DNA of 64,000 bases from a virus (IMGVR_UViG_3300008954_000022:1-64000), one strand, 5' to 3'; counted from the stretch's first letter, positions 9,645-37,121 are shown. Program-made: numbers and translations. The notes: generated from the letters alone by a model not told the origin.

Positions 9645-12146
9645 ATGGCATCAACACAGAGAGTCCTGTCAGGTTCTCAGTCTAAGGGAAGTCAGGCAAT
9701 CCTGGTCTACCCGCCCTCTCTATCCGGAACCACAGCAATAGACCAATATCGGCAGGGAATCAACTGTCGCACGATGGATCACCTGTATGGATTCATAGGG
9801 CTTAAGCCGGCACCTATTAATGACCCCATCAAGATTGTCGACGGACAGAGAATGGAGACGTATAGATTCTATAATGATCTAGACGCGCCGAGCAACATGG
9901 CTTTGTCCTCCAGCCGACCTGAGTCCGGATCTGTAGAGGCTTCCTTTAACACCAGCACAGCTACGGTCGATACAGGCATATTCTCAAAGAACACCAACAG
10001 TGCTGTGGGTGATGCTGCTACGACGTCTAATAAGTGGGTGGTGTTGGGTGGAAGTGATACGACGAGGTACTTGAGTACTGTGGGATCACACGGAGGAATT
10101 AGAGCTAACAGCCTCCAGGACAAGGTGACAGTCAAGTATCGTGTGATCCGTGGCAACACAGCAGGAGGATCCGAGGGTGTCATCACATGGACGGGTGGTA
10201 ACATGTCCAATCCTCCCGAAGCAGACGAGGACCTACAGCTCCAGGTAAGGCTCGACCTCGATGCGGATACGGGTGGTAACCAGTGGTCACCAATTAAGAT
10301 ACACTCTCTGTCAAATACGACCGCTGGCGTGGCACTCTCTGTCACAGAGTCCCTAGGGTCTTACGGGCCCGGCCCCTGGAGCGTGAGGTGGATACAGACA
10401 AATCACAGCTCCGGATCAGCCGATACCTGGGCTCTGACTGATATCTCTATTGAGGTTAACTCACCCATTCGCGAGCCCAAGTGGGGCGTGAAATCCCTCC
10501 CACAGCTGGATACCTCCACCCGATCCTCTGGCCTGGGTGTAGCAATCAATCACGCCAGGGATCAGCGTGACCTCGGCCAGGCGATGTACGTCTACCAGGA
10601 CGGCCGTGAGTACAACGACCTGATGACCACCAACGGTGCTGATATTGTTCGAACACCGCCTCTCAATCTAGTTGTGCCTGAGATGATGGTTGATGCGTCT
10701 GCACGCAGCCTAATGGACGGTGTAATGGAGGTGTTTCCAATCAGAGGCCTCGCAGATCGATCCTCAATTGAGCTGCCCTACACCGCGCGCGGCATACGAG
10801 CTGATATGTGCACAGAGGATGTTTTCAGGCAGTCGTCCCTTATGGACCAGCAGTACGATCCCAATGAGAAGGGCGTGGACATGTACTTCGATGGAGTTGA
10901 GACTTTTGGTCTAGACCTATTGGAGCCGACCTTCCAGGCCTTCAATCCCCAGGAGGACGACGAGACCTTTGCGGACAGGCTTCCTGTTGGTGCAACATCC
11001 ACAGGCCCAGTCACAATGCAGGGATTGTTCGCACCCAGAACTAATCAACTTGAGCCCTTTAAGGAGGGGTCGGACGCGTACATAAGGATAGCGGGTATCA
11101 CAGACGAGCAGATTGTCAACGAGCACCCGGCCACAGCAACAGTTTTTATTGGGGGGAGTGATGCATCGTCCCCCATTTCGATAGTAAATCTCACCGTTTC
11201 CAGCGGCACCGGTGCCTCCGGGATGGCAGAGGGTGAGCGCATCATCATCCGAGCCGACTGGCTCAATCCGCATCTCGGTGGATATGAAATGCGGAAGAGG
11301 ACCTATAGGATCGTTGATGAGGAGCTCTCAACCGTCTCTACCGGGACTGTGCTGTCGGCCGACTCAGACACGGGTTCTGCCACAACCGCGAATGCTGGTG
11401 ACATCGCTGTCGCAATCAAGGTGACAGGGTCCTCCCTGGACACTCAGAATGAGTTTCTGGTCCAGCTTAAGGCTGCCATTGAGAATCCCAAAGGCCACGG
11501 CTCCTCGATAATTGTTGGTGATGCGCCGACTGCCGCCGGCGCCCAGTCCCTTTCACTAACACGATCTGACAACGTCGCGTGGGTCTACAATCCGGCCAGT
11601 AACGTGGGCAATCTTGAAGTCGACATGGGGGTGCCCTACACCAACTCAACAGTCACAATCGTCTCGACAGACGGGACCTCCAGGGTGTACACCATGGCCG
11701 CCCCCGGAGTTGCACCAAATCCTCTAGCAAATCCTCCCACTTTTGGTGGGGCGGTCCCGCTGGCCGTCGCTATATCCCTTCGTAGCGCGATTGAAGCTCC
11801 GACTGGCACTGGAGGCGCCGGCGGTCACGGTGGCAGGATTACTGTGTCACTTCCAGCGCTGTCCTCTCTGCTGACCTTAACACAGGCAAACGCCGGCCCG
11901 GAAGGAAACACCACAGTAACTTACGCCGAAGCGCCAGGGAAGCCCGTTGCCGCCGCGGCAACATCCTTCACAGGGGGCATGTCCGGTGGTCTGGTAGACG
12001 GAATAATGACGACAGCTCTGGCAGCAATGACAGGCTCAGCCCAGGATCGCCTCAAGAGAAACCATGTTTCCGCCGGAGCAGGTTTTGTGTATATTGGTAT
12101 GGATAAGGGCACAGACTCCATCGCATTCGGAGGCCTCAAGAAGTAG
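9645..12146 (+). CDS. Virion structural protein with Reelin-repeat-like domain and two nested insertion modules
   Basis: 833-aa ORF (TAG-ATG junction); PEADEDLQLQ...W...VRWIQ...DTWALTDISI; STDGT-type module near the C-terminus. Confidence 0.6.
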   Translation: MASTQRVLSGSQSKGSQAILVYPPSLSGTTAIDQYRQGINCRTMDHLYGFIGLKPAPINDPIKIVDGQRMETYRFYNDLDAPSNMALSSSRPESGSVEASFNTSTATVDTGIFSKNTNSAVGDAATTSNKWVVLGGSDTTRYLSTVGSHGGIRANSLQDKVTVKYRVIRGNTAGGSEGVITWTGGNMSNPPEADEDLQLQVRLDLDADTGGNQWSPIKIHSLSNTTAGVALSVTESLGSYGPGPWSVRWIQTNHSSGSADTWALTDISIEVNSPIREPKWGVKSLPQLDTSTRSSGLGVAINHARDQRDLGQAMYVYQDGREYNDLMTTNGADIVRTPPLNLVVPEMMVDASARSLMDGVMEVFPIRGLADRSSIELPYTARGIRADMCTEDVFRQSSLMDQQYDPNEKGVDMYFDGVETFGLDLLEPTFQAFNPQEDDETFADRLPVGATSTGPVTMQGLFAPRTNQLEPFKEGSDAYIRIAGITDEQIVNEHPATATVFIGGSDASSPISIVNLTVSSGTGASGMAEGERIIIRADWLNPHLGGYEMRKRTYRIVDEELSTVSTGTVLSADSDTGSATTANAGDIAVAIKVTGSSLDTQNEFLVQLKAAIENPKGHGSSIIVGDAPTAAGAQSLSLTRSDNVAWVYNPASNVGNLEVDMGVPYTNSTVTIVSTDGTSRVYTMAAPGVAPNPLANPPTFGGAVPLAVAISLRSAIEAPTGTGGAGGHGGRITVSLPALSSLLTLTQANAGPEGNTTVTYAEAPGKPVAAAATSFTGGMSGGLVDGIMTTALAAMTGSAQDRLKRNHVSAGAGFVYIGMDKGTDSIAFGGLKK

Positions 12147-12149
12147 GAT

Positions 12150-14684
12150 ATGGCTAAGGTCAAGTTAAGTAAGAAGTTAACAGGAGCCCGTTTCGACACC
12201 AACTTCCAGGTGTCCTCGGGCATCGAGGGTAGGTCCCACGTGGGTCGGCTGCACTACACAGCAGCCAACTCCCTGGTTGCCCACTGGAGATTCACAGTTG
12301 ACGGAGCTCCGCACAGACTTCCACTGCACAGTGGAAGCATCAGGGACCTCTCCGGAAATAGTCACCGCGGCACATATACAAGTGATGGCTCAGAGACGAG
12401 CTTCAAGGCCTGGGGACACGTTGCGGCCACTGCTACTGTGACTTTCGTCGGTGTACCGGACAACGATGAGAACATCACGATCATCTCCACTAACAACACT
12501 GCCAGAACGTACACGAAGGCCGCCAGTGAACTCCTCACCACGGGATCACACTTCGCTGGTGCCACTCCAGCCCTATTAGCTACCAGTTTAAGGGACTGCA
12601 TCAACGCGGCCGCCGGTCACCCGAATGAGATAACTGCAACGTCCACCGGTGGAGTCGTGACACTCACACAGGATTTGAGTGGGTACGGTGGCAACACAAC
12701 GATAACCCACAACATGTCCCCAGAGGGTTCTGCTACGAACTTCACGGGAGGCAACAGCAATCCCACCAGCACATCTGTCCCCGGCCTAACCTTCGCTAGC
12801 GGTACCCGCCCAGGATACGACGTCCTGGTGAGTCCACACTCCGGAACACACGTCGCTAGCGACCCACCCCCACTCGCTGCCAGTTTTCCGTCAACGACAC
12901 CCTATGTCACCATTGCGCCTGATCTCAGAGCATCCAGTAACTTTCACTTCATAACCGAGAATATTGGCTCACCCCAGGACATCACGAAGGACAAGCCGTT
13001 CTCATTCGCAACGTGGCTCAAGACGACTGATACATCCTTTGGAATCTTCGCGTTCCAGGACCCCCTCAATCCGGACAACCACGGTCACAGGTTCTACTAC
13101 GATGCAACTTCCCTGCACCTCTCCCTAAGGGACGGCCCAGCGATCACAGATGAGTTTCACGTCTACACGGGACCTGTTAGCTCACTAGTGCCCACTAATA
13201 CCTGGGCCCATGTGGCGGTGACCTATGATGGATCTGGCGGGCCCACCCTCCTTTCTCACGTCTCTGCCAGTGACGCGGAAACTAACTACAACGGAATGTA
13301 TGAGGGATCGGGCATTCGAATCTACGTTAACGGCTCGCGCCTCCATGATATGGGTGGAACCCGCTCGGGAACTAAAAATAATCTCTGGTTCAACGGCGAT
13401 GGCATTGAAAGCTCAACCTACACGTCTCCCACACCGACGTGGTTACACGGATCTGAGGCAGCGACTGCCACTGTGACATTCACGGGTGTGCCAACCAACG
13501 GCGACACGATCACAATTACTTCCACTGATGGAACGACCAAGGCCTATGTTAAGGGAGCAGCGCAGGATCTCACCGCTGATCCCTGTGTGTTTCACGGGGC
13601 CAACGCCAGCGCAGCGGCCACTTCCCTCAAGCTGTGTATCTTAGATGCCGAGGGCGGTCACAACGGCAAGATTACTGTATCCGGTCCGGACGCGGGAGCG
13701 CTAATACTAACACAGGCCATCGCCGGAGGTGCAGGGAACACGCACATAGTGACAAATGCAGTCTCCGGAACTCCTGTCCCCATTACAGTAACGAACCCTG
13801 TTCCATTAGCGCAAAGAACCCGCACAGGCCAAGGTGCCTATCGCTATAACAATCCTGGTTTTACCGGGGGACACGACCAGCAGCAGCTGATCCTCGGGCG
13901 CGGTCGGCCCGCTTTGACAGGTTCCTACGGACTCCCATACACGGGACTCATGTTCGAGCCCGCCCTGTGGTCCAAACAGCTTAGGGATGAGGACGTTCGA
14001 GCCCTCTACCACGCGGGCCTCAAGGGTGTGAGGCAGTACAGGAAGCAGTCGGGATTCCTCGGTCTCCCCCCCCGCGTGGAGATTAGAGATAGGGACAATC
14101 AGCTTGGTGCTTATCCGACGATCTCCAGGCCTGGGTCCAGGGACTTCTCCGGCCGATTCACCACCCAGTATGACGACTCCACAGCCAATGAGTTTCTCTC
14201 CGGATACGCGTCAGCCAACATAAAATTCCTCAGAAATCCCAAAAGTACAACGAGAATAGCGCTGACAGGATCACACGGCCTGGATGGGTCGCCTGCCACA
14301 GTGAAGGAGTTCGAGTGGTCCCACAGCCCATCTCACTCTGTTACTATAATAGGCGCCGGCCGAGTCCCAGTTCGTAGGCACAGGCGAACGGCCCTAGCCG
14401 CACGAGAGTTTGTCAAGCAGGTCAATGAGCTAACAGGCACTCTGGGTATCTACGCGTCCCTGTCCGGCAAGACAGTAAGCCTCTCCCAGATGATTCCTGG
14501 AAAATCAGGTAACACCAGAATCGTTCTAACAAATGTCACAGGAACGTTCGATGTAAGTCAGCGTCACCATAAGTGGAGGGCCCTGGACCCGGGTGTTGTC
14601 GATGTGACGTCAGACGCCGGCCGAGATCCGGGCAAAGAGTCGTTAGGGTTAAGTGGTGGCAATTTTTGGATTCTGACAGGATAA
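12150..14684 (+). CDS. LamG-domain baseplate/fibre protein, N-terminal part; frame continues past TAA into 14685..20414
   Basis: LamG motifs LVAHWRF, DLSGN, FSFATWLK, WAHVAVTYDG, IYVNG, ALWSKQLRDEDVRALY; three insertion modules; ends at TAA 14682-14684 in the same frame as the next ORF. Confidence 0.7.
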   Translation: MAKVKLSKKLTGARFDTNFQVSSGIEGRSHVGRLHYTAANSLVAHWRFTVDGAPHRLPLHSGSIRDLSGNSHRGTYTSDGSETSFKAWGHVAATATVTFVGVPDNDENITIISTNNTARTYTKAASELLTTGSHFAGATPALLATSLRDCINAAAGHPNEITATSTGGVVTLTQDLSGYGGNTTITHNMSPEGSATNFTGGNSNPTSTSVPGLTFASGTRPGYDVLVSPHSGTHVASDPPPLAASFPSTTPYVTIAPDLRASSNFHFITENIGSPQDITKDKPFSFATWLKTTDTSFGIFAFQDPLNPDNHGHRFYYDATSLHLSLRDGPAITDEFHVYTGPVSSLVPTNTWAHVAVTYDGSGGPTLLSHVSASDAETNYNGMYEGSGIRIYVNGSRLHDMGGTRSGTKNNLWFNGDGIESSTYTSPTPTWLHGSEAATATVTFTGVPTNGDTITITSTDGTTKAYVKGAAQDLTADPCVFHGANASAAATSLKLCILDAEGGHNGKITVSGPDAGALILTQAIAGGAGNTHIVTNAVSGTPVPITVTNPVPLAQRTRTGQGAYRYNNPGFTGGHDQQQLILGRGRPALTGSYGLPYTGLMFEPALWSKQLRDEDVRALYHAGLKGVRQYRKQSGFLGLPPRVEIRDRDNQLGAYPTISRPGSRDFSGRFTTQYDDSTANEFLSGYASANIKFLRNPKSTTRIALTGSHGLDGSPATVKEFEWSHSPSHSVTIIGAGRVPVRRHRRTALAAREFVKQVNELTGTLGIYASLSGKTVSLSQMIPGKSGNTRIVLTNVTGTFDVSQRHHKWRALDPGVVDVTSDAGRDPGKESLGLSGGNFWILTG

Positions 14685-17600
14685 GCAGATGGGATTCACT
14701 TTCCGTTCAATCTCCCCCAAGGTCACACAGGTATACCATTCGCAACTCCCAATACCACAACCACAATGTTCGGACCCGGAAGATCGCACAGAAGCTCATT
14801 CGATCCTCGCCGTCGGTCTGATAATCCTGAGAGTCTAGGAGCTTTCACTGAAGCACATCTATTTGCACAGTTTGGTCACACACCAGTGCGTGCCTCAGAT
14901 ATCACAACCGGGAGTTCAGCAGGCGACAATCCCAATCTCACCTGGGACAGTCGATACACTGTGGACGAGGAGTTGAATTCAGGCTTTTACATGACAGGAT
15001 CAGATCCTGAAATAGTTGGCCCTGGATTATCTGCTCCGTTGTGGGACAAGCACAAGATAGAGATTGATCTAACACCGTCGACAACAACAGAAGTACAGCA
15101 CCAAAACTGGAACTCCCAATCTCTGGGTTTCTACCACGATGCCCCCAATCAGACGCTCTACGGCCCAATGATGTACTTTAACTTTAACGAGCAAAAGTGG
15201 GAGAGGATTGGAACACACGAGGCACACCCCCTCCCTACAGACCCAATTCCCGCTTCCCAGCGAGGGAACCTCACTGAGGAACAGGCTCGCTTGCGACTGT
15301 GGCTGGACAGGACAATGGTGGGCTTCGGTCAATCTACACAGATCTTCACTGGTGATTCCGACGACCGCCAGGCTTCATCGCCAAAGTCGCCGAACTCAGA
15401 TCCCGCAAAGAAGATCTTTCTGACCACAGGCATGGCGCAGCCGACCAACACGTTTGGGTTTCCCTTTCATCCAAAGTTTGCTGCGACAGGATCCCAGGTG
15501 TTCAACGTGTCCAGTGTGATTGACCGACCGTTCTTGGTTGAGAAGGTGGTGTACGAGTTCTCAGCCTCGCTATCGAATAAGACCACGTCTGCAGACAGCA
15601 ACCCTTTTACAAGGCACCCTGAGGGTGTCACTTTCTTTATCCTGAATCAGCGCGCAGGAAATATAGATCCGGGTATTGAGAACAGGGCAGTAATGGTGAG
15701 GGTGAGCGATACATCTCCCACCGGCAGTGATGGAAGCCCAGCCCCGGGTACAGAGACCCTCGAGATACCCTATTCCGGAACTATCCCAGGTGTGTGGCAG
15801 CTCTCTCCCCCGCTATCTGCGTACGGATACGGTGAGGGATACAGCTTCACGACCCTCGCAGGCACGACTGCAACGTCGGGATCGACAACAACTGTGACAG
15901 GTGTGTCTACCAGTTTTCTCAGTGAGCTGAAAGTGGGTGACAGCATTCAGCTAGTTCCCAGGGACGAGGAGGCGACAGCAACAGTATCTGTATCAGACGG
16001 AGATAGAAACCTGACCACAGCGTCCGGCGAGGGGAGAAAGATAACCATCACCTCCACCGATGGAACGACGAGGGTCTATCGAGTAGTTGATAGCAACCTC
16101 TCCGCCATCGCCACGGGAGCTGTGTTAGCAGCCAACTCCGACACCGGTGCGGGTACAACAGCGGACGCCGGCGACATTGCAGTCTCAGTCCCCGTTAATG
16201 GAAGCCCAGGAAAGCAAAATGCTCTCCTGGTCCAGCTCAAGGACGCAATTGAGGACGAAAACGGACACGACGGTAAGATTGTGGTGGGAGCTGTTCCGTC
16301 TCAGGCTGATGGAAAGCAGTCAATAACACTGACCCAGTTGACAATAGGTACCGGCGGCGGTGCATCTAGGGGCGTCACAGAGATAGTTGAGGACTTTTCG
16401 GACGCGGCCAACCAAGGGTGTCTCTCAGTAACAAATTTCGAGGTCGCAGATCTCAAGTCCAATGTCGTGACCCGAATTAACAGCGACACAGAGCTCCTTG
16501 TGAGCGCACCCGCCACCGCTGCAACTGCAATATTGACATTCACGGGAACGCAGGTAGCTGACACGTTCATGGTGATCAAGTCAACAGATGGGACTCAGGT
16601 GACCTATTCAGCGGGCACTGAAACGACAATAAGCTTTTCGGACATGCAGTTTCAGGGCAATGTGAGTGCTGTGGTCTCTGCAAAGGCGCTCCAGGAGTGT
16701 ATTGAGTCTAAAGCGGGACACGGAGGCAAGATACGTGTGCACCGTGCGGGCGCTGTTCTCACTCTCACCATGGTACAGGCAGGTCAAATACACACTCTTC
16801 ATTCCGGCAATTTTGCCATTGATATCCTCACCGGCAATCTGGCCAATGTTACGATCACACAGCAGTGGAAAGACGGCCAAGACGCCGGCATTGCAGGCGG
16901 CACAAGAACGGGATCCACGACCTCGTACATTCGTAGAATAATTCCTGTCAAGTATGATAATGTCGACACTGTGAGAGACCTGGTGACCTTTAGTCGCCTA
17001 GCAACAATGTCGAGCAAGGACAGTCTCGATCTCAAGGACGATTTTGAGAAGTATGTGGTTGACCCTAGACGTGACGCAGATCTCACAGTCGACTCACCCA
17101 CCAGCTGGTCCCATCAGAAGCTGACACTAGCAGCACCCTGCAGGGCACCCTCCCTCAGCCCGGGTGCGTCTACATTTGATGTAGGGGGCAACTTTATTGA
17201 TATCGATGGAGATGACGATGAGGATCGTCTTCTCATTAGGTATATCAACGGCTCGAGGAACGGTATGGGAATCCCAACCGGTCGATCGCCTCGTGGTGGA
17301 GAGTTTAGTGGCTTCTCTAAGCAGTATGAGCTCACCTCCGGCGATAAGGCCTTTAGACTCTTCTCACCCACAACTGATAATGTCGTCTCACCCTACCTAC
17401 TCAAACCAGGTGACAAGCTGGTCTTCGGATTCCAGGCACCGCTAGCGTACTCTGTCTACAACACAGGTCCCAAATTTCTCGTCCATCCCGGCGCCGGAAA
17501 GCTCGTCTTGTACGGATCAGTCCTGAGGAATGATCACGAGTTAACGCCTGAGAGCAATCAGCCCCTAACATCAGAGGCTGTGCATGAGTCGCTTATTTTG

Positions 17601-20414
17601 GGAACAGATGTGTACGATCAGTTTGACACTGAGCCCACGTTCGCGTTCTCTGGATCCTACCTGGATAAGATTGTAGGTGGGCACATGATCACAGGCTCAT
17701 TCCCCACTGTAACCAGTGCATCCTTCCACCTCGAGAATAAGGGAATGCACAGAAAAGTTATGGGCTACATTACCGAGGGTACAGCGGGAGTCACCGGCTC
17801 CTTCCTACGCGGTATTAAGATGGCTGACACCCGGGAGAGATTTTATGACTCCCTCCTGCCTTCTGTCGCGGAGATGCTGGCTGTGAACGGGGACTCTCTG
17901 TTTGATGGAAGAAGTTTTCAGGTCCAGGCAACACTGCAGTCGAAGCTCTTCGACGATACGGGCGCTGAGCAGTCTTTTTCGATTCCCCTCCATAGGGATG
18001 CGGGAATGTTAGATCCGTCAGCTAATGTGCTGGTTATAGCTGAGCCCCGCTCGTCTATACAAGGCCCTGGGCAAATCTTTGACAGGGATCTGGCATTCCT
18101 GTTCCCCTTTGAGCCAAAGTACTCAAATGTCTCCCGATTGGCCACAGAGAGAAAGGGCAACAAGACATTCAGCGTGGTGACAGGCTCTACTGGCAGGGGC
18201 GTGAGAAGAGGTTTCATCAGTCACATTGCTGTCACAGGCTCCCAGGTCTTTCTAAAATCGATGGGCCTGCAGTCGTACCTCCTCAGAGTGAAGGACATCG
18301 ACATGACCGACGTGCGCAACAATCGTGGCGCGCCGGTGAAGAGCCATGGCAACGGCCGAAGTCGACCATCGTTCACTGAGCTCTCCTCCTCTGTGTCTGA
18401 GTCCATCTCCCACGCAGGTCTGGCCATCCTGGGTCCCGGTGGAACAGAGAAGACTTTCAATGAGATTGATGGCGTCACCCTTCTTAACTCCCTTTACTTC
18501 GGGTTCGGCGATGGATTCTTTGGCATGCCCAAGTTCAAAAAGTTTGAGTACGAGGGCGGTGAGGAGGTAACACCGGTTGGCTTTACCAGGGCCAATCAGG
18601 CGACGACAATAACAGGCGTCGACACCAGGTTCACTAGAGACATTAAGGTCGGTGATCGTATTGCCCTGAGTGGTACCCTCGCCCCTGAGGGCTACGTCCA
18701 GCCTGGCCACGCCGGCGGCGGCGGATCCATCATAAGCCATGGCCCGCGGTCCTACGCAAAGATAACGTTCACCAACACTCCGCAGACAGCCCCGGACAGT
18801 AACACCACAATTACAATTGTGTCCACTGATGGAACGACCAAGACCTACGTCGGCATGGGTCCTGCCGCTCCCACCCCCGCCTCCCTGGAGTTCACGGCGA
18901 CCTCCACCGCCGCCACCGCCGCGGCAACGCTGAAGACAGCTATTTATGATGCTGCTGGTCACACAGGGGACAAGATTGAGGTAGAAGATAACCTGGACGG
19001 ATCCCTAACCCTATACCAGACTGAAGTCGGGACATCCGGATCGATGAATACAGCTATCGTCCTGGGTTCCAGCATGGGCAACACAACAGTGGACAACTTC
19101 AACAACACCCAGTACGGCCAATTGGGATCGAGTATATACGGGTCTGTTACAGCAATAGCCTCGGACACAGAGCTGACAGTTGAGTCCACAAACACCAACA
19201 GCAGTCGCGCGCGCACAACGATCGCGGTGACCGTTGGCGACGCCGCCCACGGAATGACCAAAAATCAAAAAGTCACCATAACATCGACCGATGGAACAGT
19301 CAAAGATTACATTGTCACCGACACAGGAAACTCCGGAGCGGCGACGGGCACCGCACTAACAAATGGCGTCACAAATGTCGGTGGTGGGACAACCGCTACT
19401 GTTACTGCTGCCGACGGAGGTGTTGCATTCGGCGCCGACCTCGGCACCAACCCCACACAAAATGCCATGCTTGCCCAGCTCAGGACGGCCATCTTGTCCG
19501 CCGCCGGTCACAATGGGAAGATTGCAGTTGGAGACACATCTGCTGATAACAATGGGACCCAGCTTCTCGCGCTAACACAGTCAGTCGGAGGCATCGCTGG
19601 TAATACAACATTCACAGAGAATATAGCCAACTTCACCGCCGCCACAAACTTCACAGGAGGTGGCGGCCTGGGTGACGGCACAGACTTCCAGAAAATAGAG
19701 GTTGAGCGTAATCCCACGATGCAGGTCTCAGGCTCCTTCACCAGCACCGGCACGCAGACCCTGACCACAACCACAGTGACGTACACGTACTGGCACCCCA
19801 GCGATTTCTGGTGGGAGTACTACGCGAGATTCTACGAAACCTACGCTAAGGGAGGCTTCTTCCAGGGCCAAGGGTGGTCCTACACCTACCCAGGCTTCCC
19901 GGTCGGGTCGTGGATCTACGGCATCTATATTGGGTGGTCCCAATACTACACAAATCTCAGGCAACAGAATGCACTGCCAGTCTACAGCCACAACAGTGTT
20001 GAGGTCAATAGGGACATCTCAATGCACATCACCGGTGCGATGCACATAGGGGTCGGATCTGGGGTGGAGCTGAGGGGTTTCAAGTATGGTATTGCGAATA
20101 TTAGGCCCCTCTACACTTCTGCAGTCTATAGGCACAACAGGTACGGGCAGGTGAGGGATCTCCTCGAGCAGAGACAGTTCACACGCTTCTTCACAGAAGA
20201 CGGCGTTGAAGCTGGCCCGGTCAAGGTAACGTTCACCTCTCGACCAGACGAGGATGGCGCAAGGTCAGTTAATGTGGATCCAGCGTCGACACACAGTCAG
20301 AACTTAGATATATTTTGCACATCATCACTTCCATACTTCGACGGCCTCACCCGGGACCGTGCCACCGACCCGGATCGGAGCGGTGGTGACAGCATTATGT
20401 TGACATTTGAGTAG
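14685..20414 (+). CDS. Giant baseplate/fibre protein, C-terminal part (first ATG at 14766; frame open from 14685)
   Basis: 1882-aa ORF from 14766; two T(V/I)TGVxTxF...KVGD...SDTEL.V beta domains, each split by two insertion modules; no Shine-Dalgarno before ATG 14766. Confidence 0.7.
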   Translation, partial: ADGIHFPFNLPQGHTGIPFATPNTTTTMFGPGRSHRSSFDPRRRSDNPESLGAFTEAHLFAQFGHTPVRASDITTGSSAGDNPNLTWDSRYTVDEELNSGFYMTGSDPEIVGPGLSAPLWDKHKIEIDLTPSTTTEVQHQNWNSQSLGFYHDAPNQTLYGPMMYFNFNEQKWERIGTHEAHPLPTDPIPASQRGNLTEEQARLRLWLDRTMVGFGQSTQIFTGDSDDRQASSPKSPNSDPAKKIFLTTGMAQPTNTFGFPFHPKFAATGSQVFNVSSVIDRPFLVEKVVYEFSASLSNKTTSADSNPFTRHPEGVTFFILNQRAGNIDPGIENRAVMVRVSDTSPTGSDGSPAPGTETLEIPYSGTIPGVWQLSPPLSAYGYGEGYSFTTLAGTTATSGSTTTVTGVSTSFLSELKVGDSIQLVPRDEEATATVSVSDGDRNLTTASGEGRKITITSTDGTTRVYRVVDSNLSAIATGAVLAANSDTGAGTTADAGDIAVSVPVNGSPGKQNALLVQLKDAIEDENGHDGKIVVGAVPSQADGKQSITLTQLTIGTGGGASRGVTEIVEDFSDAANQGCLSVTNFEVADLKSNVVTRINSDTELLVSAPATAATAILTFTGTQVADTFMVIKSTDGTQVTYSAGTETTISFSDMQFQGNVSAVVSAKALQECIESKAGHGGKIRVHRAGAVLTLTMVQAGQIHTLHSGNFAIDILTGNLANVTITQQWKDGQDAGIAGGTRTGSTTSYIRRIIPVKYDNVDTVRDLVTFSRLATMSSKDSLDLKDDFEKYVVDPRRDADLTVDSPTSWSHQKLTLAAPCRAPSLSPGASTFDVGGNFIDIDGDDDEDRLLIRYINGSRNGMGIPTGRSPRGGEFSGFSKQYELTSGDKAFRLFSPTTDNVVSPYLLKPGDKLVFGFQAPLAYSVYNTGPKFLVHPGAGKLVLYGSVLRNDHELTPESNQPLTSEAVHESLILGTDVYDQFDTEPTFAFSGSYLDKIVGGHMITGSFPTVTSASFHLENKGMHRKVMGYITEGTAGVTGSFLRGIKMADTRERFYDSLLPSVAEMLAVNGDSLFDGRSFQVQATLQSKLFDDTGAEQSFSIPLHRDAGMLDPSANVLVIAEPRSSIQGPGQIFDRDLAFLFPFEPKYSNVSRLATERKGNKTFSVVTGSTGRGVRRGFISHIAVTGSQVFLKSMGLQSYLLRVKDIDMTDVRNNRGAPVKSHGNGRSRPSFTELSSSVSESISHAGLAILGPGGTEKTFNEIDGVTLLNSLYFGFGDGFFGMPKFKKFEYEGGEEVTPVGFTRANQATTITGVDTRFTRDIKVGDRIALSGTLAPEGYVQPGHAGGGGSIISHGPRSYAKITFTNTPQTAPDSNTTITIVSTDGTTKTYVGMGPAAPTPASLEFTATSTAATAAATLKTAIYDAAGHTGDKIEVEDNLDGSLTLYQTEVGTSGSMNTAIVLGSSMGNTTVDNFNNTQYGQLGSSIYGSVTAIASDTELTVESTNTNSSRARTTIAVTVGDAAHGMTKNQKVTITSTDGTVKDYIVTDTGNSGAATGTALTNGVTNVGGGTTATVTAADGGVAFGADLGTNPTQNAMLAQLRTAILSAAGHNGKIAVGDTSADNNGTQLLALTQSVGGIAGNTTFTENIANFTAATNFTGGGGLGDGTDFQKIEVERNPTMQVSGSFTSTGTQTLTTTTVTYTYWHPSDFWWEYYARFYETYAKGGFFQGQGWSYTYPGFPVGSWIYGIYIGWSQYYTNLRQQNALPVYSHNSVEVNRDISMHITGAMHIGVGSGVELRGFKYGIANIRPLYTSAVYRHNRYGQVRDLLEQRQFTRFFTEDGVEAGPVKVTFTSRPDEDGARSVNVDPASTHSQNLDIFCTSSLPYFDGLTRDRATDPDRSGGDSIMLTFE

Positions 20415-29411: not shown

Positions 29412-29422
29412 GAGAGTGAAAC

Positions 29423-31276: not shown

Positions 31277-31283
31277 ATACTTA
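31277..31283 (+). promoter_or_regulatory. Putative late promoter motif ATACTTA
   Basis: In the 161-nt intergenic gap before 31384. Confidence 0.5.
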
Positions 31284-31307
31284 TCTGCGAGCGTTTAGGA
31301 GCATATC

Positions 31308-31382
31308 GTGATCTCAAGAGGGTGCAGAGCACTCAAACATCCACTCCTGTGGGACACAGGAAGACCGCAAGGGGAGAAATAA
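31308..31382 (+). CDS. Possible 24-aa leader ORF (MISRGCRALKHPLLWDTGRPQGEK)
   Basis: AGGAG at 31297-31301, GTG at 31308, TAA at 31380-31382 ending 1 nt before ATG 31384. Confidence 0.3.
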   Translation: MISRGCRALKHPLLWDTGRPQGEK

Positions 31383-31383
31383 G

Positions 31384-32100
31384 ATGGGATTCCTTGATCA
31401 TTCAACCAACAACATTATTGTTGACGCTGTCCTGACAGATATTGGAAGGGAATTTTTGGCTGCCAACAAGGGCGACTTTATGATTTCTTTTTTCTCTCTG
31501 TCAGACGACGAGGTGGACTACACTATTATTGAAAAGTTCGGAAGGACTGTGGGCAAGGAGAAGATCATTAAGAATACACCGATCTTCGAAGCCCAGACGC
31601 AGTCCGGCATCGCGCAGAAGTTTCGCATGTTGAGCCTTCCCGATCCAACAGTTCGTAACCTTCCAACTGTGTCGCTGCAGGGAACATCAGGACTCACCGG
31701 AAACACAGTGGCATTTAATACAAGCACCAACTCTTCTCGTGAGGTGGTGTTTGAGCAGACAATTGAGGGTGAGACTAGAATTCCTGAGGGGGTCTCCGAC
31801 ACCTCTTTCATTGTCATGGCACCCGATAGGTTTTTGGCTGTAGAGGGGCGATCGCCTTTCAATACTGAATCAACAACACGGATTTCATCTTACCTTGTTG
31901 AGCAGACGGGGGTTAACAACAAAAACGGGGCCCAGGTGCGGTTCAATCTAGTCCTCCAACCGGGATTGGATGACACAATTTTCACAATTTATGGAAATCT
32001 CGGGGACAAGAATACAATCACAAGCACGTGTGCTGTGATTGGTAATCAGTCCGGATATCGAAAGGACTTCACTGTGACCATCACGAGACCCACAGCGTAG
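31384..32100 (+). CDS. Virion structural protein with tail-collar-fibre-like N-terminus
   Basis: VDAVLTDIGREFLA....F.ISFFSLSDDEVDY; GGAG upstream. Confidence 0.65.
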   Translation: MGFLDHSTNNIIVDAVLTDIGREFLAANKGDFMISFFSLSDDEVDYTIIEKFGRTVGKEKIIKNTPIFEAQTQSGIAQKFRMLSLPDPTVRNLPTVSLQGTSGLTGNTVAFNTSTNSSREVVFEQTIEGETRIPEGVSDTSFIVMAPDRFLAVEGRSPFNTESTTRISSYLVEQTGVNNKNGAQVRFNLVLQPGLDDTIFTIYGNLGDKNTITSTCAVIGNQSGYRKDFTVTITRPTA

Positions 32101-32118
32101 GTAGAGGTAAAATAGACA

Positions 32119-33399: not shown

Positions 33400-33437
33400 T
33401 GGATCGGTTAATTGAAGTTTCAAGATGACGGCGTTAA

Positions 33438-36400
33438 ATGGCAATTATACCAATACCAATAGAGAATCTTGAACGATTTACCCTCACAGCCAATCCCCGC
33501 CGGACATTCACATCATCATCCTCAGGACTAACAGGGTCAGTTAAAGTCTTCTCTCGTGCTTCAACCATTGAGAAGGAGGCACAACCCCTCGAGGATTATG
33601 GTGGAGACAGCTGGGGAACAGCTGATGTTGAGGAGCTAAGGGTCCAGACTGTCAGGGACTCTAGGGGTTCAAGTGATATTTCTGGCAACATCAGTCAGTA
33701 TTTAGAGACTGTTAACTCCTCTTCAGCATCACCTGCACGTCAGAAGAAGGTGGAGGTCATTCGATTCGAGCCCTCCTTCAAGCTGACCAGTGACTCCCTT
33801 CGAAAGAATGTGGTGAGAAAGGTGCTCTTTCCCACATATCGAAGCACCTACCCCACATTGCAGTGGGCGTATCCCAACTACCACACCCTACACTTCTTTA
33901 CGTCCGACACGACTCCCACGGGATCTGTCCTCATATATCCAGCTGCTACTTCTTCCGGGGAGACCAATGAGGTCGACAACTTCATGTACTCACCCCACAA
34001 GGAGTTTACGTTCGATTTCTACATCAATCCGAAGTATTCGTCTGAACCGAACGACTCGAAATTCACTTCTACTGCAACATTCACGTTCTCAGATAAGCCT
34101 CCTGAAGAGTCCGCTATCACCCTGTTAGATAGCGATGGGACTTCGGTTGCTTTCGAAATAGATAACGAGAATAATGGTCTTAAACCACCAGCAGCCACCT
34201 TTACGCTAACCGACAAACCTAACGAAGGCAGTACAATCAATTTGATTGATGGTGATGGAACCTCAGTTACGTTTGAAGTTGATAACGAGAACAACGGTGT
34301 CTCTGCAGGCAATGTTGCTCTCAACGGAATCTATGCTGCAGGTGGCGGCGCCACAGGAACCGCTGCAGATCTTGCTGCAAAGATTAATGCTCAGTCTGCG
34401 TTAGATATGACAGCATCAGCGTCAGGAATTGGAGTAATAACCGTAACCCAGGGTTCAACTGTCGGCCGAAGCGGCAATACTACAATCACAGTAAATGACG
34501 CCGCTCACTGGAACAGCGTGTGCAGTGTAAATGTCCCCTCAGCTTTCACTGGTGGGCGTGGAGATGTCGCTGTAAGTGGAATTGCTGCCGCCGGCGGCGG
34601 CGCCACGGGAACTGCTGCAGATCTTACTGCAAAGATTAATGCACAATCATCCCTGGATATAGTAGCTACAAATCCCTCTGCGGGAGTAGTCTTACTCACG
34701 CAAGGTGCTGTCGAAACAAGCGCGGGTAATACTGCAATTACCCTAGACAATGCCGCTGCATGGAACGCAAGCACTAGTGTTAACGTTCCATCTACATTTA
34801 CAGGCGGCACTGAGCCTGGAAGAACAGTGTACCATCCGGGCACGGTCATTCACATGTCTTCCTCGTACGCAGTGAGCCTAATCTCGGGCTCATCGAAGGA
34901 TCACAACGGCAAGACGGATGGCTTCAGGATAATGTTGCAGCTGAGCAACAGTGCTGAGACATCGCCCAGGAATACTGTAGTAACAGCTAATAGTGCGAAT
35001 CAGCCCTTCCCGCAACGAGCGGTCGGTACAGGAGAACAGATCAGTGACATGGTATTCTTCTCGAAGGACAACGCGCTCAAGAGAAATCACTGGCATCATG
35101 TCGCTATTAGGTGGGGTTCCTCGATTAACAACGGCACAGGATCGTTCGTGATCGACGGAAAGGAGGACGCGACATTTGTGGTAACAGCCTCCTCAGTGAT
35201 GCCCCAGGCCTTTGAACCACCGTACGGTGATCCCGACGCCGTTTTTGTGGGCAACTTCTATGACGGTCCCAACAATGGTACACTGGATGGCTCAGGTGTT
35301 GTAGCACAGTTCTTCAATGCCAATGCTGCCCACCGTGAGGGTGTTACCAGCATGTTCACGAATGACTCGTACGACATGTCTAATGTAGATGCCACACACA
35401 ATGATATAGCAGAACACAAGATAAGATTCTCACACCCATTAAGGGCGGAGATCCACGATCTCAAGATATTCAACACTTACCACTCACTGCAACAGATAGC
35501 CTCATCCTCTCAGAAGGGACCTGATCCCCTTCCAGCTGACCTGATCTTCTATGTGCCACCTTTCTTTGTGAAGGAGACTAAGGAGCGGGAGGTGATGCAG
35601 ACACCGTTCCAGACAGTTCGATCGACCACAGATGATCCCTTTAACGTTGCCCTGTCGTTCGGCGTCGGTGGCCACATGTTGAACCTTCCAAACTTTACCC
35701 GAGAGTTCGTTAACGGCCTCTATCCTCGCCTCTTCAATCTGACGGGATCGACAATTGATGTGACCACGAACACGGCAGAGCTGTGTAACCTGTGGCTCTA
35801 CCGAAATGCGTCACTGAGAAAGAGAAACCTCACAGTGCTACCGTGTGATAACGGGAGGTTCAGTCCGTCATTCAACCTCCTCAAGTCAGGAACCCGAGTC
35901 GAAGTCCCTGCATCCGGATCACTGATCGATAGGTTTGTTAATGACTCTGGAAATATTGACTACGGCCTTATCAACCTCTCGAACATGGTCAGCACCGCAT
36001 CCCTACCGGAGGGGCTGATCGATATAACCAGTGAGAACCGCGGAAGGCAAGGAGTAGGAACTCAGGCTGCCTCTGCAGAGATTGTCTACACAGCAACCAA
36101 GACTGCGGATCAGACAACTATAAGCCTAACAGGATTACGCAAGAACTCGGTGACAAACTCTTATGACAGAGTGACGAAGGTCTACCGATTCGTATTCACA
36201 GGCGGTGTCAACGGAGATGTTCAGGGGGGCAAGGTTATAGTTGATGCCAGCAGCGCCGATGCCGATACTGTCTACGACAATTTTGTGTCTGCTGTCAATG
36301 GCTCCACCGGGCACGCAGGTCTAATTCTGGCCAGCAGAGATGCCAACGACACCGATGACTACGCCGGAGTGGTGACCCTCAATCAGCGCGCAGTGGGAAC

Positions 36401-37121
36401 TATAGGGAACACTAATATAGGGCACAACCTCACGAACCTGTACAGGACATTGACCTCATTCACAGGCGGGAAGGACAATTCTGACTCCTCTATTTCCAAC
36501 TCTCTAGAGGGCGCGCCGCCCGAGGATCCGGGTGTGGCCAAGTCCGGTATTCTGACGATTCTGAATAGGACGAAGGACCCCTCCTCGAACCAGGTTGCAT
36601 TCTTTGACGTGTCGAACCTCTTCTATGGGAATCAGATTAGGCGTGGATCGTTCCAGGTGACAGACACTAGTGTAACTGGATCTGGTGGCGTTTTATCAGT
36701 TACACTCAGGGATGATGGACACGGAGGCCTCTACCGTGCCGATGCCCTATCGAAGCACGCCACGTGGAACGCTGTGGGCAATATCATCTATGAAGAGGGT
36801 ATTGCTGTTGTTAAGACACCGAACATTCCTATTTTTGGGGCCGACGAGTGGACAACCAGCTTCGAGGGTGAGCACAATGTGCACGTCCTGGAGATAAACG
36901 TGCCCTGCCCCAAGGGAACCGTCAACTCCTCCTCCAATCCGACCTTCAAGGCGCTTAAGCCCACAGACTACGCCAATGAGACAGCGTCTCAATTTAGTTA
37001 CATTACAAGTGTAAATCTCCACGATGAGAGTTTTAATGTAATAGGAAGGGCCAACTTGGCCCAACCCATTGTGAAGAGGGACTCCGATGGATACCTCTTC
37101 AGGTTGAGGATCGATTATTGA
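33438..37121 (+). CDS. Large LamG-containing baseplate-associated protein with three insertion modules
   Basis: FTFDFYINP...NHWHHVAIRW...VIDG...EIHDLKIFN LamG pattern; C-terminal NSSSNPT...YITSVNLHD...IGRANLAQPIVK......FRLRIDY. Confidence 0.7.
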   Translation: MAIIPIPIENLERFTLTANPRRTFTSSSSGLTGSVKVFSRASTIEKEAQPLEDYGGDSWGTADVEELRVQTVRDSRGSSDISGNISQYLETVNSSSASPARQKKVEVIRFEPSFKLTSDSLRKNVVRKVLFPTYRSTYPTLQWAYPNYHTLHFFTSDTTPTGSVLIYPAATSSGETNEVDNFMYSPHKEFTFDFYINPKYSSEPNDSKFTSTATFTFSDKPPEESAITLLDSDGTSVAFEIDNENNGLKPPAATFTLTDKPNEGSTINLIDGDGTSVTFEVDNENNGVSAGNVALNGIYAAGGGATGTAADLAAKINAQSALDMTASASGIGVITVTQGSTVGRSGNTTITVNDAAHWNSVCSVNVPSAFTGGRGDVAVSGIAAAGGGATGTAADLTAKINAQSSLDIVATNPSAGVVLLTQGAVETSAGNTAITLDNAAAWNASTSVNVPSTFTGGTEPGRTVYHPGTVIHMSSSYAVSLISGSSKDHNGKTDGFRIMLQLSNSAETSPRNTVVTANSANQPFPQRAVGTGEQISDMVFFSKDNALKRNHWHHVAIRWGSSINNGTGSFVIDGKEDATFVVTASSVMPQAFEPPYGDPDAVFVGNFYDGPNNGTLDGSGVVAQFFNANAAHREGVTSMFTNDSYDMSNVDATHNDIAEHKIRFSHPLRAEIHDLKIFNTYHSLQQIASSSQKGPDPLPADLIFYVPPFFVKETKEREVMQTPFQTVRSTTDDPFNVALSFGVGGHMLNLPNFTREFVNGLYPRLFNLTGSTIDVTTNTAELCNLWLYRNASLRKRNLTVLPCDNGRFSPSFNLLKSGTRVEVPASGSLIDRFVNDSGNIDYGLINLSNMVSTASLPEGLIDITSENRGRQGVGTQAASAEIVYTATKTADQTTISLTGLRKNSVTNSYDRVTKVYRFVFTGGVNGDVQGGKVIVDASSADADTVYDNFVSAVNGSTGHAGLILASRDANDTDDYAGVVTLNQRAVGTIGNTNIGHNLTNLYRTLTSFTGGKDNSDSSISNSLEGAPPEDPGVAKSGILTILNRTKDPSSNQVAFFDVSNLFYGNQIRRGSFQVTDTSVTGSGGVLSVTLRDDGHGGLYRADALSKHATWNAVGNIIYEEGIAVVKTPNIPIFGADEWTTSFEGEHNVHVLEINVPCPKGTVNSSSNPTFKALKPTDYANETASQFSYITSVNLHDESFNVIGRANLAQPIVKRDSDGYLFRLRIDY
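34068..34808 (+). repeat. Nested duplication of a ~120-aa module (inner copy 34191-34556 inside the outer copy)
   Basis: Each half appears twice: ATFT.(S/T)DKP.E.S.I.L.D.DGTSV.FE.DNENNG and AAGGGATGTAADL.AKINAQS.LD...WN...SVNVPS.FTGG, arranged N1-N2-C2-C1. Confidence 0.85.

What the first reader, a model, noticed from the sequence alone, without database searches (positions are those of the whole stretch)
11130..36470. A ~100-150 aa module inserted about 12 times into baseplate/fibre proteins
Seen: a module with consensus A(T/S)AT(V/I)TF.G.P...TITI.STDGT...Y...A..L(K/R).(A/C)I....GH.G(K/R)I.V...L.LTQ...G..GNT.I...(N/S)FTGG recurs at about 11130-11978 (two copies), 12423-12752, 13458-13871, 14208-14660, 15972-16440, 16518-16877, 18750-19106, 19209-19661, 34068-34808 (two copies) and 36066-36470. 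Most copies interrupt another domain (LamG folds, KVGD/SDTEL beta domains, or another copy) rather than forming tandem arrays. There is a short and a long variant; long copies still resemble each other at DNA level (CTGGTCCAGCTTAAGGCTGCCATTGAG vs CTGGTCCAGCTCAAGGACGCAATTGAG). Knowledge: the pattern recalls the outer insertion domain of Mu-type tail sheaths. Inference: a domain with adjacent termini that spreads by in-frame insertion into surface loops, building a branched decoration on the baseplate. This is the best candidate here for an undescribed diversification system.
Basis: partly seen in the sequence, partly recalled or inferred. Interest (0 to 1): 0.85.

Follow-up and report, generated by a model that had tools for sequence, protein, structure and literature searches.

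The report
Mobile plug-in domain on phage baseplate
A roughly 110-residue domain with the fold of the outer domain of phage tail sheaths has been inserted in frame, even into copies of itself, 12 times in four baseplate-region proteins of an uncultured jumbo phage, and related phages show the same sites empty or carry extra copies.

Summary
Twelve copies of one ~110-150 aa module lie in four + strand genes, at the coordinates and in the frame given. No other frame or gene of the 95.7-kb contig holds one.

The module matches no Pfam or PHROG model. It belongs to a family of about 880 protein clusters, which appear to be almost entirely viral.

AlphaFold models (pLDDT 96 and 85) have the fold of the inserted outer domain of simple tail sheaths (A-1(L) Z 10.9, PhiTE Z 10.0, Mu).

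- g4 orthologues in four more distant relatives are 817-844 aa and lack exactly both module blocks.
- A sister phage has six extra copies. Its scaffolds are 63-94% identical outside the modules.
- One extra copy sits in a sheath paralogue at a site that is empty in 62 of 64 homologues.
- Self-nesting two to four deep recurs across the family.

I found no sign of an active mechanism: no flanking repeats above chance, no reverse transcriptase on this contig (about 28% of the genome), and only weak DNA similarity between copies.

Verdict: a new, highly insertion-prone variant of a known kind of phage decoration domain. It is not shown to be a dedicated diversification system.

The parts
9645..12146 (+). 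g1, an 833-aa baseplate-region protein that hosts two modules
   Evidence: ORF. The orthologue P0005 in the sister phage is 73-75% identical. The orthologue in G002 is only 417 aa and matches g1 residues 2-110, 330-480 and 772-833, so it lacks the module pair.
11130..11156 (+). g1 outer short module, first strand only (ATATVFIGG)
   Evidence: The second profile match in g1 starts at profile position 10, so it lacks strand 1. The long variant that follows has its own first strand, as in g3a and g3d. This nested reading rests on sequence only.
11157..11627 (+). g1 inner long-variant module, nested after strand 1 of the outer copy
   Evidence: A1 profile 1.7e-23. The long-variant signature is shared with g3a, g3d and the sister phage's inner copies.
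11628..11978 (+). g1 outer short module, remainder
   Evidence: Seed profile 7.4e-18. A1 profile 2.5e-31, positions 10-119.
12150..14684 (+). g2, 844 aa, with a LamG-like host domain. It is the front part of a giant protein that is a single ORF in relatives.
   Evidence: Pfam Laminin_G_3 at 25.4 bits, below the 27.6 cut-off. It is collinear with one 3137-aa ORF in the sister phage and a 1981-aa ORF in G002.
12423..12752 (+). module g2a (short), modelled alone
   Evidence: A1 1.4e-35. AlphaFold pLDDT 96.4. VIA Z 10.9 to the A-1(L) sheath, residues 93-186. 69% of its residues fall in a gap of the G002 orthologue.
13458..13871 (+). module g2b (short, with a C-terminal extra loop), between LamG-like segments
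   Evidence: A1 8.3e-36. 91% gap in the G002 orthologue. The sister phage has a further long module nested in it after the GHxG motif.
14208..14660 (+). module g2c, divergent and probably the oldest resident copy
   Evidence: A1 2.1e-23. It is the only copy with a counterpart in G002, at aa 433-587, iE 1.2e-5. The sister phage has a short module nested here; the window has 16 residues in that place.
14766..20414 (+). g3, 1882 aa, the rear part of the giant protein, hosting four modules in two cassettes
   Evidence: ORF. Alignment to the sister phage and to G002.
15972..16440 (+). module g3a (long), inside the small KVGD/SDTEL beta domain
   Evidence: A1 2.4e-31. In the sister phage the beta domain is uninterrupted and the long module follows it.
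16518..16877 (+). module g3b (short)
   Evidence: A1 1.3e-31. 99% gap in the G002 orthologue.
18750..19106 (+). module g3c (short), inside the second KVGD/SDTEL beta domain
   Evidence: A1 1.6e-31. The sister phage has a long module nested in its strand 3 to helix loop.
19209..19661 (+). module g3d (long)
   Evidence: A1 2.8e-30.
33438..37121 (+). g4, 1227 aa, with a LamG-like host domain
   Evidence: The sister orthologue is 92.6% identical with the same architecture. Orthologues of 817-844 aa in G002, G003, G004 and G007 match only g4 residues 1-209, 462-860 and 1015-1227. The piece after the module block hits Laminin_G_3 profile positions 51-110 at 24.1 bits, below the cut-off.
34068..34181 (+). 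g4 outer module, N-terminal half
   Evidence: A1 profile positions 2-36, E 5.9e-6.
34182..34556 (+). g4 inner module, complete, nested in the strand 3 to helix loop of the outer copy
   Evidence: A1 1.1e-26. In the AlphaFold model it is residues 45-169, Z 9.1 to the A-1(L) sheath.
34557..34808 (+). g4 outer module, C-terminal half
   Evidence: A1 profile positions 45-119, E 6.6e-6. 97 nt are 78% identical to the inner copy.
36066..36470 (+). module g4c, divergent, with an insertion in its hairpin
   Evidence: A1 8.3e-28. The site is empty in four outgroup orthologues.
10050..10055 (+). empty site A in g1 (around G136/S137). The sister phage has a module here.
   Evidence: BLASTP of P0001 against P0005: residues 143-257 of P0005 have no counterpart in g1.
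10317..10325 (+). empty site B in g1 (around T225/A227). The sister phage has a module here.
   Evidence: residues ~343-458 of P0005 have no counterpart in g1.
63112..63126 (+). empty site in the second tail-sheath paralogue (gene 62485 to beyond the window end). The sister phage has a g4-type module here.
   Evidence: The site is filled only in the two loci that carry the sister's sequence, out of 64 homologues.

Best explanation
The repeat is a compact alpha/beta domain of about 110 aa: three strands, one helix, then four strands. The long form adds about 40 aa in the loop between strand 3 and the helix. Its fold is that of the outer insertion domain of simple tail sheaths, the T7-type nozzle and FliD D3, where the chain enters and leaves the domain at the same place.

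Because of that geometry, a whole copy can be dropped in frame into a surface loop of another domain, or of another copy, without breaking the host fold.

In the lineage of this T4-like jumbo phage the domain multiplied by such insertions into conserved baseplate-region proteins. A ~830-aa protein became the 1227-aa g4. A ~1900-aa giant protein became the ~2750-aa g2+g3. A ~420-aa protein became the 833-aa g1. In the sister phage a tail-sheath paralogue was also invaded.

Copies are gained, probably lost, and possibly swapped on the time scale on which the scaffolds diverge by 5-40%. They also evolve faster than their scaffolds.

Shown here: recurrence, fold, insertion topology, polarity of gain for g4 and for sheath site B, and recurrent independent insertions.

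Inferred: insertion happens by rare illegitimate or short-homology recombination followed by selection, not by a dedicated enzyme. The copies are exposed on the baseplate and tail surface and serve as adhesive or shielding decoration. The partner domains seen elsewhere in the family fit this: LamG, C1q, FN3, discoidin and CUB.
For: Recurrence and specificity.

Family: 879 representative clusters at E<=1e-3 and 357 at E<=1e-10, in proteins of 127-3780 aa with 1-17 stretches. The nearest atlas clusters are 94-100% viral and carry no Pfam family. No Pfam or PHROG model matches.

Fold:
- The single module has pLDDT 96.4.
- Its residues 1-109 align to A-1(L) sheath 93-186 (Z 10.9, rmsd 2.2, 90 aligned), PhiTE sheath 85-179 (Z 10.0), P-SCSP1u and T7 nozzle ~148-249 (Z 10.2 and 8.9), Mu sheath 102-213 (Z 8.1) and FliD D3 (Z 7.8).
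- The nested pair has pLDDT 84.7, and its inner copy gives the same hits.
- The XM1 paper describes this sheath domain as an insertion domain resembling FliD D3 (PMC10457771).

Family members sit in sheath proteins (P0155, P0181, P0182), in a nozzle protein (P0164) and inside a LamG domain (P0058).

Insertion and polarity:
- g4 orthologues in four relatives lack exactly residues 210-461 and 861-1014, with conserved flanks on both sides.
- The G002 orthologue of g1 lacks the module pair.
- Six of the seven g2+g3 modules fall mostly (58-99%) in gaps of the 1981-aa G002 orthologue.
- The sister phage IMGVR_UViG_3300010883_000007 has six more copies: two in g1, three nested in g2b, g2c and g3c, and one in sheath paralogue 2.
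- That sheath site is empty in 62 of 64 homologues. A second site is filled in four separate clades whose sisters are empty.

Self-nesting: N-half/C-half token strings such as NNCC and NNNCCC recur across the family.

Rate: module columns are 59%, 48% and 91% identical between the window and the sister phage, against 82%, 63% and 94% for non-module columns of g1, g2+g3 and g4.

Lineage-specific expansion: within the set compared (the 30 window and sister modules plus 226 un-nested modules from other proteins), the four nearest relatives of every scorable module came from these two genomes. Two of the 30 could not be scored, and nested database copies such as those of P0054 and P0040 were not in the set.
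Against: - structure prediction returns no coordinates, so the N-to-C distance and the packing of the outer halves were not measured. Both are inferred from topology and from fold-search ranges.
- The polarity of five of the six window-versus-sister differences is unresolved. At g2c the window keeps 16 residues that could be a deletion remnant.
- Sister-specific copies are only 48-54% identical to any resident paralogue, so their donors are unknown.
- Nothing was tested for function.
- Sequence-level homology to the sheath domain is not significant: phrog_165 gives E 0.041, and the profile search of PDB sequences found no sheath, nozzle or FliD chain and nothing below E 0.016.
- LamG assignments rest on Pfam hits just below the gathering score.
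Confidence: 0.8

Rival explanations
1. An active, dedicated diversification or mobility system moves or rewrites the modules. Candidates are a diversity-generating retroelement, homing-type cassette exchange, or a recombinase that recognises the conserved ATAT...FTGG borders.
For: - Copy number and position change quickly between close phages.
- Modules at orthologous sites are sometimes less alike than paralogues within one genome: 65% against 50%. That would fit cassette swapping or gene conversion.
- The module borders are conserved peptides.
Against: - No reverse transcriptase on the 95.7-kb contig, though that is only about 28% of the genome.
- No template/variable repeat pairs; DNA similarity is confined to conserved peptide motifs.
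- The longest word shared by the two junctions is 5-6 nt at 8 filled sites, no more than random window pairs give.
- New copies are only about 50% identical to any resident copy.
Confidence: 0.08
2. The architecture is ancient and fixed. The copies are old internal repeats of these proteins, and the differences between phages are only deletions in some lineages.
For: - Copies are only 23-48% identical to the first copy in the alignment.
- g2c has a counterpart in the distant relative G002.
- The g4 architecture is identical in the window and the sister phage.
- A possible deletion remnant lies at the g2c site.
Against: - Four independent outgroup orthologues of g4 lack both blocks precisely, with conserved flanks.
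- In the sheath paralogue family 54 of 64 sequences are empty at both sites, including all deep branches. The filled ones are scattered, and two different sites are used.
- A nested N-N-C-C order can only arise by insertion.
- Within the set compared, the modules of this lineage have their nearest relatives among each other.
Confidence: 0.07
3. The copies form an ordinary tandem repeat or fibre-type array, and the apparent interruption of other domains is an alignment artefact.
For: - Some family members are plain tandem pairs, such as P0021 and the 377-aa protein of L009.
- In g1 the two copies are adjacent.
Against: - In the window, copies are separated by 25-630 residues of unrelated sequence.
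- The two half-matches flanking a whole copy in g4 are found by an independent profile.
- AlphaFold gives two compact domains for that block.
- Orthologues without modules join the flanks seamlessly.
Confidence: 0.03
4. The modules are intein-like or otherwise removed after translation, so they are selfish inserts and not part of the virion.
For: In-frame insertion into conserved proteins at many sites is also what inteins do.
Against: - The fold is alpha/beta and sheath-domain-like, not a Hint fold.
- The first residue is Ala in 94% of copies. The last residues are F-x-G-G, not His-Asn followed by Cys, Ser or Thr.
- The same fold is a permanent part of solved sheath, nozzle and FliD structures.
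Confidence: 0.01

Closest known systems
Outer (insertion, 'additional', D3/InD) domain of simple tail-sheath proteins: A-1(L), PhiTE, Mu, XM1, Sf14
   Same: - Same fold over the whole module (Z 8-11, rmsd 2.2-2.5, 88-90 of 110 residues aligned).
- In those sheaths it is a contiguous segment inserted in the N-terminal domain and facing outwards (PMC10457771; PMC9230969).
- Members of this sequence family sit in sheath proteins of other phages and in the sister phage's sheath paralogue.
   Different: - In the window none of the 12 copies is in a sheath. They are in baseplate-region proteins, in LamG-like and small beta domains, and inside each other.
- Sequence similarity to solved sheaths is not significant.
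- Copy number, self-nesting and turnover go far beyond the one domain per sheath subunit described.
FliD D3 and flagellin D2/D3 outer domains
   Same: Same fold class (Z 6.4-7.8). Like them, it forms part of a hairpin-like, nested domain organisation on the outside of a filament protein.
   Different: These belong to the bacterial flagellum, not to a phage. There is no significant sequence match: Pfam Flagellin_IN gives E 0.94 in one copy only and is absent in 70 family members.
The ~100-aa domain at residues ~148-249 of T7-type nozzle proteins (tail tubular protein B, Pfam Phage_nozzle)
   Same: Same fold (Z 8.5-10.2). One family member, P0164, is a 1786-aa nozzle protein with many modules ahead of the conserved nozzle core.
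   Different: T7 has a single resident copy. No turnover or nesting has been described for it.
Carbohydrate-binding modules inserted in 'evolved' Dit, Tal and other tail proteins of lactococcal and streptococcal siphophages
   Same: In-frame insertion of an extra surface module into loops of conserved baseplate proteins, present or absent among close relatives, with an adhesion role (PMC6669499, PMC10688798; listed, titles and abstract openings seen only).
   Different: A different fold family, a different phage group, one or two modules per protein, and no self-nesting reported. Carbohydrate binding is not tested for the present module.
Ig-like decoration domains of phage structural proteins (as summarised in PMC9230969)
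   Same: A promiscuous, horizontally exchanged, non-essential surface domain on virion proteins, thought to aid weak adhesion.
   Different: Those domains are all-beta Ig folds, mostly terminal or in tandem. This module has a helix, is not Ig-like, and is mostly internal.

Membership tests
Tail-sheath outer insertion domain / FliD D3 fold class | Compact alpha/beta fold (three strands, a helix, four strands) that superposes over the whole domain | tested here: met
   Model pLDDT 96.4. Z 10.9, 10.0 and 8.1 to the A-1(L), PhiTE and Mu sheaths and Z 7.8 to FliD, covering model residues 1-110. The inner copy of the nested model gives the same hits.
Tail-sheath outer insertion domain / FliD D3 fold class | Present as a contiguous insert in a loop of a host domain, with the chain entering and leaving together | tested here: met
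   Module-free orthologues join the flanks directly. In the solved sheaths the matched segment is residues ~85-213 inside the N-terminal domain (PMC10457771). The N-to-C distance itself was not measured.
Tail-sheath outer insertion domain / FliD D3 fold class | Detectable sequence homology to sheath proteins | tested here: inconclusive
   phrog_165 (tail sheath), profile positions 131-186, E 0.041 for g2a only. The profile search against PDB sequences found no sheath chain.
Tail-sheath outer insertion domain / FliD D3 fold class | Located in a tail-sheath protein | tested here: not met
   Neither sheath paralogue of this genome has a copy. Family members in other phages do.
Any Pfam-A or PHROG family | Match at or above the curated or significant threshold | tested here: not met
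   No family matches the modules. No recurrent family appears in 70 members.
LamG / concanavalin-like fold (host domain of g2 and g4) | Match to Laminin_G_3 on both sides of the insert | tested here: inconclusive
   g2 residues 276-363 score 25.4 bits and the g4 piece after the modules scores 24.1 bits, both below the 27.6 cut-off. The g2 piece after g2b has no hit. P0058 has a module directly before profile position 44.
Diversity-generating retroelement | A reverse transcriptase plus a template/variable repeat pair | tested here: inconclusive
   No RVT_1 match on the contig and no suitable DNA repeats, but only about 28% of the genome is on the contig.
Intein | Hint fold, N-terminal Cys or Ser, C-terminal His-Asn followed by Cys, Ser or Thr | tested here: not met
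   The borders are Ala (94%) and F-x-G-G. The fold is alpha/beta and sheath-domain-like.
Ig-like phage decoration domains | All-beta immunoglobulin sandwich | tested here: inconclusive
   The model has a 13-residue helix packed on a sheet. None of the top 50 structural matches is described as an Ig domain.
Carbohydrate-binding module | Binds glycans | not testable with these tools
   Only context is available. Partner domains in short family members include LamG, C1q, FN3, discoidin and CUB, at weak to moderate E-values.

The most novel reading that the evidence does not exclude
The module is a self-propagating protein domain. Its conserved border codons (A-T/S-A-T ... F-T-G-G) and loop-tolerant geometry would let phage recombination copy it preferentially into Gly/Ser/Thr-rich surface loops, including its own three permissive loops. 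The result would be recursively branched, fast-evolving adhesion 'trees' on the baseplate. That would make it a protein-level analogue of a mobile element and a natural domain-insertion scaffold.
Probability: 0.12. Interest if true: 0.85.

Novelty: new variant of a known kind. Interest (0 to 1): 0.62.

Why it matters
Extra surface domains on phage tails are known, but usually as one fixed domain per protein. Here one domain family, absent from Pfam and PHROGs, has entered at least five different structural proteins at about 18 sites in two sister phages. It nests inside itself and comes and goes between phages whose scaffolds are 63-94% identical outside the modules.

This has three uses:
- It gives a natural map of permissive insertion loops in baseplate, LamG-type and sheath proteins, and a natural plug-in scaffold for display or engineering.
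- It offers a tractable case for studying how multidomain proteins grow by recursive insertion.
- It is a candidate determinant of adsorption differences among uncultured, probably marine (TARA-derived family members) jumbo phages.

A profile of this family would also annotate several hundred protein clusters that mostly carry no name or Pfam family.

Tried and rejected
- tblastn of one module and of a four-module protein against 50,697 cultured phage records found nothing. The fold does appear in BFVD models of cultured phages (RcTitan, PhiJL001 and others), all uncharacterised.
- phmmer and profile searches of PDB sequences gave only spurious hits.
- The search for related loci with the module alignment failed because no stretch was conserved enough.
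- A word-based search for g2 orthologues found only module-level matches.
- A metagenome scan with g1 found nothing.
- Earlier-findings lookup by sequence found nothing.
- The KVGD/module/SDTEL cassette was not found in any other family member.
- Flagellin_IN homology is not supported.
- The crAss auxiliary capsid protein lead from the atlas is only a weak fold resemblance, Z 5.8-6.3.
- Junction microhomology is not above chance.
- The first, HMM-based scoring of module presence on the sheath-paralogue tree missed divergent copies (L038, L074). I replaced it with site-length scoring.
- A literature search for nested domain insertion in phages found no paper.

Full report
**Setting.** The window is the first 64 kb of a 95,672-base IMG/VR virus record that CheckV rates about 28% complete. 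It carries T4-type late genes: a gp6-like baseplate wedge, large terminase, portal, major head protein and a 1055-aa tail sheath. It is therefore a fragment of a large (jumbo-sized, by the completeness estimate) contractile-tailed phage. The finding covers four long + strand genes downstream of the wedge gene: g1 9645-12146, g2 12150-14684, g3 14766-20414 and g4 33438-37121.

- A profile built from four copies recovers the others in a six-frame scan. Nothing below E 0.6 appears elsewhere.
- Eleven copies align over 119 columns, with near-invariant Gly, Ile, Leu and Asn positions.
- That profile finds 13 matches in the whole contig, all in these genes.
- The count is 12: two in g1, three in g2, four in g3 and three in g4.
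- The outer g4 copy is detected as two halves around a complete copy.
- DNA similarity between copies is weak. It consists of short 62-84% stretches under conserved peptides, and the best is 97 nt at 78% between the two nested g4 copies.

**What is the module?**
- No Pfam or PHROG model matches it, either in the window or in 70 family members.
- No PDB sequence matches.
- A full HMMER scan of 1.84 billion representative proteins finds 879 clusters at E<=1e-3 and 357 at E<=1e-10. The proteins are 127-3780 aa long and carry 1-17 stretches.
- The nearest atlas clusters are 94-100% viral and unnamed.
- AlphaFold gives a very confident model of g2a (pLDDT 96.4, pTM 0.90) with strands 3-8, 17-21 and 27-32, a helix at 49-61 and four more strands.
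- The whole model superposes on a contiguous segment of several solved proteins:

| Target | Residues | Z |
|---|---|---|
| A-1(L) tail sheath | 93-186 | 10.9 (rmsd 2.2, 90 aligned) |
| P-SCSP1u nozzle | 148-240 | 10.2 |
| PhiTE sheath | 85-179 | 10.0 |
| T7 nozzle | 149-249 | 8.9 |
| Mu sheath | 102-213 | 8.1 |
| FliD D3 (5fhy_B) | 105-229 | 7.8 |
| FliC | 172-280 | 7.7 |

- The XM1 paper calls this sheath segment an insertion domain and notes its likeness to FliD D3 (PMC10457771). Evseev et al. describe such 'additional domains' as outward-facing and more numerous in large phages (PMC9230969).
- Members of the sequence family sit in sheath proteins, in a T7-type nozzle protein and inside a LamG domain of other phages.
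- BFVD shows the fold in uncharacterised proteins of cultured phages such as RcTitan and PhiJL001.

**Insertion rather than tandem repetition.**
- In g4 the order is N-half, whole copy, C-half. The 257-residue block folds with pLDDT 84.7. Its inner copy (model residues 45-169) gives the sheath hits. Matches to ~100-aa alpha/beta proteins span model residues 1-257 with only about 85 aligned, as expected if the two outer halves form one domain. This last point is indirect, because coordinates are not returned.
- In g1 the second copy lacks strand 1 (profile positions 10-119). An orphan strand, ATATVFIGG, precedes a long variant that has its own first strand. I read this as a long copy nested after strand 1 of a short one.
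- The sister phage shows a third self-insertion point, inside the GHxG-K motif after the helix.
- Across the family, separate profiles for the two halves give token strings such as NNCC and NNNCCC. Balanced nesting two to four deep occurs in 16 of 183 proteins. Many more are unbalanced, mostly by an excess of C-halves, probably because the short N-half is often missed.

**The empty-versus-filled test.** g1 has a clear orthologue, P0005, in IMGVR_UViG_3300010883_000007. It is 73-75% identical and carries two extra modules, at sites that are contiguous in g1.

The locus is syntenic. In the sister phage g2+g3 is one 3137-aa ORF. It has three further module-sized indels of 100-107 residues in the pairwise alignment, each nested in the orthologue of g2b, g2c or g3c.

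The long module of the first g3 cassette lies inside the small beta domain in the window but after an uninterrupted beta domain in the sister.

The sister's second sheath paralogue is 78-87% identical by BLASTP and holds a g4-type module that the window genome lacks. The totals are 12 copies in the window and 18 in the sister.

**Polarity.**
- g4 orthologues in four more distant contigs (G002, G003, G004, G007; 817-844 aa) match g4 residues 1-209, 462-860 and 1015-1227 only. The alignment shows the conserved flanks joined where the window has the nested pair and g4c.
- The g1 orthologue in G002 is 417 aa and has no modules.
- The g2+g3 orthologue in G002 is 1981 aa. Six of the seven window modules fall mostly in its gaps. 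Only the divergent g2c has a counterpart there (iE 1.2e-5), so g2c is probably the oldest resident copy.
- In 64 full-length homologues of the sheath paralogue, 54 are empty at both insertion sites, including all deep branches.
- Site A is filled in four separate clades whose sisters are empty. Site B is filled only in the two loci that carry the sister phage's sequence. This amounts to at least five independent gains.
- The closest filled/empty pairs are 81-90% identical outside the insert.

**Dynamics.**
- Module columns are less conserved than scaffold columns: 59% against 82% in g1, 48% against 63% in g2+g3, and 91% against 94% in g4.
- I compared the 30 window and sister modules with each other and with 226 un-nested modules from other proteins. 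For every module that could be scored, the four nearest relatives came from these two genomes. Two of the 30 could not be scored. Nested database copies were not in the set, and P0054 and P0040 are 63-64% identical to the g4 pair. This fits a lineage-specific expansion of three subtypes: short, long and g4-type.
- Some paralogues within one genome are closer than the copies at orthologous sites. That hints at gene conversion or swapping.
- The sister-specific copies are only 48-54% identical to any resident copy.
- Junctions carry no direct repeats above chance.
- No reverse transcriptase is on the contig.
- I therefore see no evidence for a dedicated mechanism. Rare illegitimate recombination followed by selection is the simplest account.

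**Function.** Function is inferred only.
- The fold is an exposed, non-essential decoration in sheaths.
- The conserved residues are mostly Gly, Asn and Thr, plus one His and one Gln.
- Partner domains in short family members include LamG, C1q, FN3, discoidin and CUB.
- I take the copies to be surface decoration of the baseplate periphery with an adhesive or shielding role, at roughly even odds.

**Comparison and novelty.** The domain works like, and has the fold of, the sheath insertion domain. The evolutionary pattern resembles the carbohydrate-binding-module insertions in 'evolved' Dit proteins of dairy phages (PMC6669499).

It differs in four ways:
- It is an unmodelled sequence family.
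- In the window it lies outside the sheath.
- It reaches a high copy number in several proteins at once.
- It nests in itself and turns over between close relatives.

My two paper searches aimed at this pattern turned up no description of it; one search returned no paper at all. I rate it a new variant of a known kind, of moderate to high interest.

**Limits.**
- No coordinates were available, so contacts and termini were not measured.
- The genomes are fragments.
- The polarity of five window-versus-sister differences is open.

Noticed in passing
window 14682-14684: The TAA that separates g2 from g3 is in frame with both. The sister phage has TCA (Ser) at that codon and one 3137-aa ORF. More distant relatives also have a single ORF of 1436-1981 aa. 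The cause could be a recent nonsense mutation, a sequencing error or read-through.
   Followed up: partly
window 59269-62436 and 62485-64000 (continuing to 65544 of the contig): There are two tail-sheath paralogues in tandem, about 34-35% identical to each other. The first is 95% identical to the sister phage's. The second belongs to a family with more than 80 IMG/VR homologues of 990-1410 aa.
   Followed up: partly
window 10030-10550 (g1 aa ~130-300): A beta-sandwich region with a sub-threshold Pfam Reelin_subrepeat-B hit is absent from the 417-aa G002 orthologue of g1. It looks like another inserted domain, and it is the host of the sister phage's two extra modules.
   Followed up: partly
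window ~15880-16520 and ~18600-19210: The small KVGD/SDTEL beta domains that carry modules are themselves missing from the G002 orthologue. In the sister phage the first one is uninterrupted, with the long module placed after it.
   Followed up: partly
window 14316-14363 (g2 aa 723-738): Sixteen residues (WSHSPSHSVTIIGAGR) sit where the sister phage has a complete nested module. They weakly resemble that module's second strand, so they may be a deletion remnant.
   Followed up: no
L009 640-3269: An unrelated 7.1-kb viral contig encodes a 377-aa protein made of two tandem modules and a 494-aa protein with an N-terminal module. They lie upstream of ORFs that I took, by eye and untested, to be head genes. 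This shows the family in a small phage as well.
   Followed up: no
window 52726-54615: The major head protein is 629 aa, and the phrog_138 match covers only residues 358-612. About 350 N-terminal residues are unexplained.
   Followed up: no
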